Source: Eledone cirrhosa (taxonomy: Eukaryota). Taken from it: a stretch of DNA of 64,000 nucleotides. Of the stretch, positions 20,847 through 21,614 are shown one piece after another. The stretch spans positions 13,206,001-13,270,000 of the forward strand of contig OZ024762.1 in NCBI GenBank assembly GCA_964016885.1, given 5' to 3'. Under the pieces are notes generated by a model. It was not told the DNA's origin, ran no database searches, and saw nothing but the letters and a program-made list of their open reading frames with translations. The position numbers and the translations under genes are program-made. Numbering within the stretch: the first letter of the stretch is position 1; each line of letters starts with the position of its first letter.

Positions 20847-21320
20847 TGCCGTAAGCCCGAAGCTTGTCCCCTTCAACAGCAATGCAACACACCCGCTGTA
20901 GTTTATGAAGCTGTGGTCACTTCCAACCGACCAAATCAACCTCAGGAGGTCAAATGCTATGTGGGCATGGCGGAGGGCCGATTTAAGGAACGCTTCCTGA
21001 TCCTGAACCACCAGTCGACCTTTAGGTAGCCGGACAGACGTTCATCCACGAAACTCGCGAGCCACGTATGGTCCCTCAAGGACTCAAGTATAGACTACTT
21101 CATTCAATGGAAAGCCATTACTAAGTCCAAGCCATACGCAAGGGGAAATCCGTCGTGTCGACTATGTATTGATGAACGAATAAATATTCTAAAGAGATTA
21201 CGCAATAGTGATTGCCTAAACACGAGAAATGAATTCTTCACACGTTGTCCACACATCTGGAAACACCTCTTACATAACTACAAACTCCGGATTGAATTAC
21301 AACATCCTAATTTTAACTAG
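20847..21320 (+). pseudogene. Penelope-like element C-terminal GIY-YIG endonuclease, 5'-truncated, one in-frame stop
   Basis: Translation [95 protein letters not shown] motifs, conserved R, E and N, Cys/His clusters. Confidence 0.9.
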
Positions 21321-21454
21321 AAACATTCGGACTTTCGCAGTTATCTCCCTTACACCTCTCGCACGCAATTTAGTATTGCCTGAGTGAAGTGACCGTTTCT
21401 GCGCATGCGCATTCATGCGGGTGTCCTTCCTGTTCCGTGGAACCATGTCCATTA

Positions 21455-21492
21455 CGAGCTGAGGATCCGCTAAGGTGAAACAATTGTTCTCG
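21455..21492 (+). ncRNA. Minimal type I hammerhead in PLE 3' UTR/pLTR
   Basis: CGAG-CTGAGGA-TCCGCTAAGGT-GAAA-CAATTG-TT-CTCG, ~135 nt after the EN stop codon. Confidence 0.85.
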
Positions 21493-21614
21493 GTATGGTG
21501 AACTAACTGTTGTGTAACCCACTTTTACCTAACTCGTCCCTTGGACTGAGTGCTCTACCACTACGGATATTACCTTCCAGTGTTCTACCACTATATATAT
21601 ATATATATATATAA

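What the first reader, a model, noticed from the sequence alone, without database searches (positions are those of the whole stretch)
20847..21590. GIY-YIG endonuclease remnant + minimal hammerhead + tail: the link to the autonomous parent
Seen: an EN reading frame with one TAG and a 6-nt duplication (TCCTGA x2), then a 38-nt HHR with palindromic stem III (CAATTG), then the CTGAGTGCT tail, all between (TA)n tracts. Known: this order is the 3' end of a PLE. Inference: the CPLxxxC / CxLC..E..LNxRxE..CxH pattern most resembles Naiad-type PLEs, and such elements would supply the enzymes and the (TA)n preference.
Basis: partly seen in the sequence, partly recalled or inferred. Interest (0 to 1): 0.7.

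Follow-up and report, generated by a model that had tools for sequence, protein, structure and literature searches.

The report
Hydra-clade Penelope stub with signal hairpin
This is a broken, shortened copy of an abundant Penelope-type jumping gene of the known Hydra group (not Naiad); its tail holds a small hairpin, conserved and usually present twice across that group, that lies just past the two places where copies end and likely tells the copying enzyme where to start.

Summary
In detail: EN frame with a TAG and a 6-nt duplication, a 38-nt hammerhead, a tail, TA tracts. It is a 5'-truncated dead copy of a family with thousands of copies (about 3% diverged). Longer copies put the RT upstream of the EN and show RWR, DKT, a CxCX5C linker, no CCHH and a canonical hammerhead: Hydra clade, not Naiad. 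It is a different family from the published Hydra-1_Obim. It is not the parent of the neighbouring hammerhead elements: they share no sequence with it, and two trace to other Hydra families. No intact copy of this family was found; other Hydra families here have open ORFs. The "CTGAGTGCT" word is the 3' arm of a hairpin (clade form GCTC...TY-GAGC-ACT) found in 33 of 46 distant Hydra loci, usually twice, with a covarying pair (31 of 31 families). Insertion 3' ends stop 1-12 nt before hairpin 1 or hairpin 2 (30 of 30 copies), so the tail equals the hairpin spacing. I found no paper describing it; this scan noted the hairpin before on other DNA. It likely positions reverse-transcription start; untested.

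The parts
20848..21592 (+). 5'-truncated, tailed copy of a Hydra-clade Penelope-like retrotransposon (745 bp of a main body of about 2.55 kb)
18171..20847 (.). (TA)n-rich tract on the 5' side (TRF array; interrupted by short unique stretches); T20847 is shared with the element
20847..21295 (+). Remnant of the C-terminal GIY-YIG endonuclease; family stop TGA at 21293-21295
20847..20885 (+). Second half of the CxCX5C linker and the following CPxxxxC; the copy is cut inside this motif
20898..20966 (+). GIY-YIG core (VVYE...YVG); no CxxC between the two halves; the single Cys at 20955 is private to this copy (TCC in 27 of 30)
20995..21006 (+). 6-nt duplication, in frame, private to this copy (1 of 30)
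21027..21029 (+). Premature TAG, private to this copy (TAC in 28 of 30)
21156..21254 (+). CxxC, catalytic-type E and N, and CxH of the Hydra EN
21283..21285 (+).
21296..21454 (+). 3' UTR / pLTR upstream of the hammerhead
21455..21492 (+). Type I hammerhead motif; predicted cleavage after GUU at 21488; 10-nt palindrome 21479-21488 predicted to pair between two copies
21520..21528 (+). First preferred 3' end of the family (16 of 30 copies stop here, 3-12 nt before hairpin 1)
21528..21592 (+). 65-nt optional tail; it is the first part of the 5' UTR of the next unit in tandem copies; ends 1-4 nt before the putative hairpin 2, which is not in this copy
21532..21554 (+).
21592..21908 (.). (TA)n tract on the 3' side, with TATA microhomology to the element end

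Best explanation
This is a dead, 5'-truncated insertion of a Hydra-clade Penelope-like retrotransposon in a TA tract, and the conserved hairpin in its tail is likely the RNA signal that positions where the element's reverse transcriptase starts. Shown: family membership, domain order, motifs, lesions, two preferred 3' ends, conservation and covariation of the hairpin, and that ends fall a few bases upstream of each hairpin copy. Inferred: a transcript that runs from one unit through the hammerhead into the next unit's 5' UTR (tandem read-through, or a circle after hammerhead cleavage) carries two hairpins about 60-70 nt apart; the RT-EN protein binds one, nicks (TA)n DNA, anneals the nick to the TA-containing bases just 5' of the hairpin and copies backwards. 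Starting before hairpin 1 gives a tail-less copy; starting before hairpin 2 gives a copy with the tail, which then contains hairpin 1. This copy started before hairpin 2 and stopped after 745 nt inside the EN linker. The hammerhead is predicted to fold poorly alone and would need a second copy or protein. Confidence: about 0.97 for the Hydra identity, about 0.65 for the hairpin role; the number below is for the whole statement.
For: Hydra identity: 585-aa open frame RT then EN in L002; start MDLY, RWR, SDKT in long copies; matches the Hydra definition and the Hydra rows of the supplement alignment; among 120 database homologues RT precedes EN in 111 of 111 with both, CxCx5C in 107 of 120, two Cys inside the GIY-YIG core in 0 of 92; EN model pLDDT 93.8, best three structural rows T4 EndoII (Z 7.0, rmsd 3.5, 103 aligned) and Hpy188I (Z 3.7, 3.3), both GIY-YIG nucleases by my recall. 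TA target: 28 of 30 ends. Hairpin: in 33 of 46 distant loci with at least 100 nt after the hammerhead, shuffles mean 0.87, max 4, upstream control 0 of 46, and in 33 of 42 5' regions; 3'-arm variants carry the matching 5' arm in 4 of 5 instances; the first inner pair is Watson-Crick in 31 of 31 families (13 C-G, 18 T-A; shuffle mean 15.9, 0 of 100,000), needing at least 4-5 double changes on a quick tree. Geometry: 16 of 30 copies end 3-12 nt before hairpin 1 and 14 of 30 end 1-4 nt before hairpin 2, none elsewhere; 17 of 20 long copies end at the same two sites; 6 of 6 visible ends of a second family in this genome stop just before its hairpin 1; 16 of 16 distant loci that run into (TA)5+ do so either before the hairpin 1 zone or 51-63 nt after hairpin 1, the hairpin 2 spacing being 55-74 nt. 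Precedent: in an Anolis Poseidon element RT starts at two internal RNA sites that bound the tail (PMC11167929).
Against: No biochemical or RNA evidence here; position alone cannot tell RT positioning from RNA cutting or DNA recognition. 3 of 20 long copies end elsewhere (one 4 nt after the hammerhead cut site, two inside the EN). The distance end-to-hairpin is loose (1-13 nt) and blurred by TA microhomology. 13 of 46 loci lack the strict motif (7 of them run into a TA tract first, 6 do not); 8 of 78 GAGC arms lack an exact 5' partner. No G-U at the covarying pair (0 of 70), so RNA is not favoured over single-stranded DNA. In this family hairpin 1 deviates (A-T first pair, 1-nt bulge) and hairpin 2 is irregular, with a long inner domain seen only by folding. 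The published Hydra-1_Obim consensus shows no clear copy of the motif by eye. The strict descriptor was written after I had seen the loci (idea noted earlier). Clade placement rests on motifs and comparison by eye, not on a tree with reference clades; Pfam finds nothing in this family's EN (GIY-YIG in 5 of 63 relatives only) and Foldseek gave no match at E up to 0.001.
Confidence: 0.65

Rival explanations
1. Same element, but the hairpin works as an RNA-processing signal: a host or element nuclease cuts the transcript just 5' of the hairpin, and RT starts near the new RNA 3' end as in LINEs.
For: It predicts the same two 3' ends just upstream of each hairpin. A short helix followed by ACT loosely recalls a tRNA acceptor end, and tRNA-like helices do define RNA 3' ends in other systems (recalled, no call).
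Against: In the one PLE tested in vitro, RT starts inside an unprocessed RNA and extending the 3' end does not move the product (PMC11167929). About half of the copies pass hairpin 1 intact, so cutting would have to be partial.
Confidence: 0.14
2. Same element, but the motif acts at the DNA level: the endonuclease recognises it (in the donor pLTR or in single-stranded cDNA) and the two ends come from EN-mediated resolution of an intermediate.
For: Craig et al. ascribe PLE tails to EN-mediated resolution; the tail was needed for EN recognition of plasmid DNA in Drosophila Penelope, as cited in PMC11167929. No G-U pairs at the covarying position.
Against: Covariation shows pairing within one strand, which double-stranded recognition does not need. 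Tail-less copies end before the motif and contain none of it.
Confidence: 0.12
3. Same element, but the hairpins serve translation or transcription of the ORF (they lie 30-130 nt before the start codon) and the ends coincide with them because TA-containing bases happen to precede each hairpin.
For: Both hairpins are in the 5' UTR; the bases before each hairpin are TA-rich and would give microhomology with the target.
Against: Other TA-containing positions in the 3' UTR and after hairpin 2 are almost never used; the TA-then-hairpin order is kept across families about 40% identical in protein.
Confidence: 0.07
4. One reading: a Naiad-type element, possibly a selenoprotein, that is the autonomous parent of the neighbouring hammerhead elements.
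For: (TA)n preference is shared with Naiads, and octopus Naiads exist.
Against: EN is C-terminal, no CCHH, no CX2-5CxxC, DKT not DKA, canonical hammerhead present. Conserved Cys codons checked are TGT/TGC, one stray TGA in 30 copies. Neighbours do not align with this family above shuffles.
Confidence: 0.01

Closest known systems
Hydra clade of C-terminal EN+ Penelope-like elements (Craig et al. 2021, PMC8557442; main text parts 1-6 of 10, word search of the whole text, and supplement parts 2, 52, 53, 58 plus term look-ups read)
   Same: Single ORF of about 710 aa, RT then GIY-YIG EN; RW[KR]; DKT; CxCX5C linker; no CCHH; CxxC and CxH around E and N; canonical hammerhead near the 3' end; (TA)n targets; under 3 kb; partial tandems, inverted 5' pieces and an optional tail.
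   Different: The tail is 65 nt (30-40 bp quoted for PLEs in general). The paper does not mention a hairpin in tails (0 hits for 'hairpin' or 'stem-loop'), although by eye 5 of its 6 novel Hydra consensus sequences contain the motif or a near variant.
Hydra-1_Obim (Octopus bimaculoides; supplement of PMC8557442)
   Same: Closest named relative seen; collinear N-terminus, RT and EN; 25 of the first 44 residues identical, counted by eye.
   Different: A different family: different hammerhead, UTRs and EN insert; listed without pLTR, whereas this family has pLTRs and tails.
PAc, Poseidon element of Anolis carolinensis (Frangieh et al. 2024, PMC11167929; parts 1-2 of 4 read)
   Same: Two internal RT start sites bound the tail; AT-rich nicking; hammerhead not needed for insertion in vitro.
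   Different: Other clade; there the start sites lie inside the ORF in an AC-rich stem-loop and the protein-binding motif is only bracketed; here they lie in the 5' UTR just upstream of a duplicated, sequence-conserved hairpin.
Naiad (N-terminal EN+ PLEs, PMC8557442)
   Same: PLE-type GIY-YIG EN, (TA)n preference, present in octopus.
   Different: EN before RT, CCHH and CX2-5CxxC fingers, DKA, no canonical hammerhead, 3.4-4.4 kb; none of this holds here.
Non-LTR retrozymes (PMC7229834, passages; bioRxiv 10.64898/2026.07.22.740005, parts 1-3 of 5)
   Same: Type I hammerhead; proposed to be mobilised by PLEs.
   Different: Non-coding tandem units; this is a single truncated coding copy.

Membership tests
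Hydra PLE | Single ORF, RT followed by C-terminal GIY-YIG EN | tested here: met
   111 of 111 homologues
Hydra PLE | RWK motif and DKT in place of DKG | tested here: met
   RWR and SDKT in long copies
Hydra PLE | CxCX5C linker; CCHH absent; CxxC and CxH around E and N | tested here: met
Hydra PLE | Canonical hammerhead near the 3' end | tested here: met
   21455-21492, identical in 17 of 30 copies; layout as in supplement table; activity not tested
Hydra PLE | Insertion into (TA)n; length under 3 kb | tested here: met
   28 of 30 ends at TA; main body about 2.55 kb
Hydra PLE | No insertion-in-fingers domain, no Naiad CxC domain | tested here: inconclusive
   RT collinear with Hydra rows by eye; no formal alignment with reference sequences
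Hydra PLE | RT phylogeny inside the Hydra clade | not tested
   The tree holds only Hydra-like rows and no reference clades; the published sequences were read but not aligned
Naiad PLE | N-terminal EN upstream of RT | tested here: not met
Naiad PLE | CCHH and CX2-5CxxC fingers; DKA | tested here: not met
Naiad PLE | No canonical hammerhead | tested here: not met
   hammerhead present
Naiad selenoprotein | In-frame TGA at conserved Cys | tested here: not met
   4 Cys positions tabulated over 30 copies (QQC, both Cys of CxxC, CxH; the six commonest states shown): one TGA in one copy; open frames read through all Cys
Naiad selenoprotein | SECIS element in the 3' UTR | not testable with these tools
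   SECISearch not available; Rfam found nothing in 21240-21600
Hydra-1_Obim family | Sequence identity at family level | tested here: not met
   57% over the first 44 residues and unrelated UTRs and hammerhead, by eye
GIY-YIG nuclease | Fold and Y, Y, G, R, H, E, N residues | tested here: met
   invariant or near-invariant Y28 Y46 G48 R57 H61 E116 N131 in 63 ENs; top structural rows T4 EndoII Z 7.0 and Hpy188I; Z is middling and Foldseek not significant
Non-LTR retrozyme | Non-coding tandem units each with a hammerhead | tested here: not met
   single copy with coding remnant

The most novel reading that the evidence does not exclude
Hydra-clade PLEs carry a clade-wide, duplicated RNA hairpin that lies downstream of the RT start site and is therefore not copied when used. 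It fixes the two initiation sites, explains the long-puzzling optional tail as the spacing between two hairpins, makes tandem or circular RNA obligatory for tail-less copies, and lets any tailed stub be mobilised in trans. It would be the first sequence-defined RT-positioning element of a PLE, the sister group of telomerase.
Probability: 0.5. Interest if true: 0.7.

Novelty: new member of a known kind. Interest (0 to 1): 0.48.

Why it matters
The element itself is ordinary: one of thousands of dead copies of a known clade. The hairpin matters because how PLEs choose their internal RT start sites and why their copies carry an optional tail is open; a 20-30 nt motif with covariation and fixed geometry gives a direct mutational test, and this genome holds naturally open ORFs of related families that could supply the protein. 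It also gives a simple marker for annotating Hydra ends and the many short fold-back stubs derived from them.

Tried and rejected
Rfam on the whole window gave only microsatellite noise among the 150 listed rows, none in 21240-21600 and none in 10 distant Hydra loci at E up to 0.01; it misses these hammerheads too, so the blank says little. Pfam: nothing for the window peptides or the 585-aa frame; PF26215 is not in the genome-search library, so no Naiad or Neptune copies were pulled for a reference tree. PDB by sequence profile: nothing relevant. Viral contigs: no relative. No RNA holder listed, so expression and hammerhead cleavage were not examined. The wide VIA search never ran; the second-look VIA was used. 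Papers not held: Lunse et al. 2016 on small PLE hammerheads (seen only as a reference entry) and Pyatkov et al. 2004 (seen only as cited); either could mention a downstream structure. Literature searches that did not turn up a description of the hairpin: (listings), and word searches in PMC8557442, PMC6765202, PMC7229834, PMC13282606; figures, Repbase/Dfam notes, bioRxiv supplements and the supplement of PMC11167929 were not seen. Rejected: Naiad; selenoprotein; this family as parent of the window's other hammerhead elements; an intact master of this family (the longest open frame, 722 codons, begins upstream of the start codon, has a deletion in RT motif A and breaks inside the EN). Hairpin 2 covariation is uninformative (18 C-G, 1 T-A). 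Slips: L154 was oriented wrongly and dropped from the family counts; the column labelled 'Cys EAC' is the Ala codon and was not counted.

Full report
Observation. Window 20848-21592 is a non-repetitive island between TA tracts. Its frame from 20850 reads as a GIY-YIG-type endonuclease with a TAG at 21027 and a duplicated TCCTGA at 20995-21006; a 38-nt hammerhead motif lies at 21455-21492 and CTGAGTGCT at 21546. In an alignment of 30 copies both lesions are private to this copy, and it has two more, a 1-nt deletion near 21284 and a 6-nt deletion near 21314. The stem III palindrome is 10 nt. As a monomer the hammerhead fold is computed at +0.3 kcal/mol against -4.8 for the best fold; a two-copy hammerhead fold gives -10.6 against -15.4, in line with the dimer model for minimal PLE hammerheads (PMC4209133, parts 1-2 of 4 read).

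Family. The 3.0-Gb host genome, likely an octopus (inferred from the closest named relative and the repeat make-up), gave 4,637 first-look candidates; all 40 scored match nearly the whole island at 92-100%. Exact 22-mers next to the hammerhead and at the tail end occur 7,328 and 2,094 times, controls 0; these are floors. Copies lie a median 3.1% from the column majority. The 5' ends vary; many copies carry an inverted piece or a pLTR. Extending 5' gives an RT directly upstream: a 585-aa open frame in L002, then MDLY, RWR and SDKT at the N-terminus. Of 22 distinct long copies examined none has a whole ORF (20, 2 more, chosen from 107 matches).

Clade. Craig et al. define Hydra by a C-terminal EN, RWK, DKT, CxCX5C, no CCHH, CxxC and CxH around E and N, canonical hammerheads, (TA)n targets and a length under 3 kb; Naiads have the EN at the N-terminus, CCHH, CX2-5CxxC, DKA and no canonical hammerhead. 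The family meets every Hydra point I tested and fails every Naiad point. Of the 120 best database homologues (308 found, 36-50% identical), 111 of 111 with both domains have RT first, 107 of 120 have CxCx5C and 0 of 92 have two Cys inside the core. A model of the EN is confident and its best structural rows are T4 EndoII (Z 7.0) and Hpy188I, though Foldseek alone was not significant and Pfam saw GIY-YIG in only 5 of 63 relatives. No tree with reference clades was built. The nearest named element, Hydra-1_Obim, is a different family.

The parent claim. Full-length copies align to the window only at this island, and eight neighbouring elements do not align with its hammerhead-tail region above shuffles (best 22 of 300 shuffles reaching the score). 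The fold-back element at 22190-22805 belongs to a family whose longer copies carry their own Hydra EN (2 of 3 extended). The hammerhead at 1198 is the end of a third family, with 714-codon open frames. Among the 30 best loci, 20 have no stop in the match; these two families are 52-54% identical to this one in protein. So enzymes of this clade are or were recently available in the genome, but from other families.

The tail word. CTGAGTGCT is the 3' arm of a hairpin at 21532-21554 (z -2.7). The same shape sits in the one-sided tails of seven other window elements and, by eye, in published Hydra consensus ends. I noted this as a prediction and then fetched 96 Hydra-like loci from metagenomes and assembled genomes (73 families at 75% identity). 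55 have a hammerhead after the ORF. The motif GCTC, a 6-18-nt loop or stem-loop, TY, GAGC-ACT follows it in 33 of the 46 loci with at least 100 nt of data (shuffles mean 0.87, max 4; reverse strand 7; upstream 0) and precedes the ORF in 33 of 42. It usually comes twice, 55-74 nt apart. Anchoring on the 3' arm only, 70 of 78 GAGC arms have GCTC upstream (background 3% per window), and 4 of 5 variant arms have the matching partner. The pair inside the stem, not used for selection, is C-G or T-A in 70 of 70 instances and 31 of 31 families for hairpin 1, with at least 4-5 switches on a quick tree of 46 proteins. Rfam has no such family, and the Naiad and Chlamys consensus files show the words only inside coding regions (line breaks could hide hits).

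Geometry. With a query that stops before the tail, the 30 best copies (this one included) end at two places only: 16 at 3-12 nt before hairpin 1 and 14 at 1-4 nt before the putative hairpin 2, which in this family is irregular and has a long inner domain; 28 of 30 run into TA. Of 20 long copies found with an upstream query, 17 end at these sites and 3 do not. A second family in this genome ends just before its hairpin 1 in 6 of 6 visible cases, and two inverted copies of the third end 2 and 6 nt before hairpin 2, while the window's copy of that family stops about 13 nt before hairpin 1. In distant loci, 16 of 16 TA junctions within 200 nt of the hammerhead fall in the two expected zones, and direct comparisons give 2-4 nt in four loci and 11-16 nt in three. 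The tail is thus the stretch between the two hairpins.

Mechanism. In the Anolis element PAc, RT starts at two internal sites of an unprocessed RNA and these sites bound the tail. The simplest reading is that in Hydra elements each hairpin anchors the protein so that copying starts a few bases upstream, at TA-containing bases that can pair with the nicked (TA)n target. This is inferred. RNA cutting at the hairpin, DNA-level recognition by the EN, or a role in expression remain possible and are scored as rivals.

Earlier notes and print. I found the hairpin and its geometry before reading earlier scan notes; two of them report a small conserved or repeated hairpin in Hydra tails in other genomes, one with the same proposed role. 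They are not independent support. Eight literature searches and word searches in four papers found no description; two relevant papers were not held, and figures and some supplements were not seen.

Verdict. The finding is a new family member of a known clade, misassigned to Naiad and not the parent of its neighbours. Its value is the clade-wide duplicated hairpin that marks both tail boundaries and is directly testable. Interest 0.48.

Noticed in passing
window 610-990, 8085-8560, 22190-22805: Fold-back elements with a hammerhead on each arm and a one-sided tail that starts about 5-11 nt before an ACTC...GAGT-GCT hairpin; the last belongs to another Hydra family with its own EN and a 3' UTR of about 1.6 kb.
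   Followed up: partly
window 3050-3175, 22930-23120, 26575-26750, 39120-39205: Short palindromic family with the hairpin and a tail but no complete hammerhead; about 2,000-2,450 first-look candidates; centres vary in length; no coding parent found among the 50 loci fetched.
   Followed up: partly
window 1170-1285; loci L162-L176: 3' stub of a Hydra family with 714-codon open ORFs; its full copies carry an altered hammerhead after the ORF followed by at least 0.9 kb of shared extra 3' sequence, and a different hammerhead in the pLTR.
   Followed up: partly
loci L147-L176 (own genome): Two Hydra families with long open frames (20 of 30 loci without a stop in the match), possibly still active; in both, hairpin 2 encloses a similar 65-70-nt inner domain.
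   Followed up: partly
window 49648/49656 (inverted pair), 55401, 58059, 51906: A further hammerhead family with a long stem III, ending in TA tracts about 15-20 nt after the motif.
   Followed up: no
window 8741, 12475, 14339, 7307: Further single hammerhead-like motifs next to TA tracts.
   Followed up: no
window 12693-13940, 16616-16950, 25702-26029: Minisatellites with 68-, 85- and 93-bp units.
   Followed up: no
L247 1-3026: Broken Rep/helicase-like frames resembling a Helitron (label recalled) upstream of a Hydra copy.
   Followed up: no
L130-L146: Hydra PLEs lie on contigs filed under bacterial genomes, most likely animal contamination of these assemblies.
   Followed up: no
G000:C1 143338022-143785334: Tail-end matches recur about every 45-60 kb on one strand, suggesting a large tandem duplication that includes a copy.
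   Followed up: no
loci L046, L047, L305, L307: A second subfamily (82-86% to the window copy) with a different 3' UTR start and hammerhead loop but the same hairpin and ends.
   Followed up: partly
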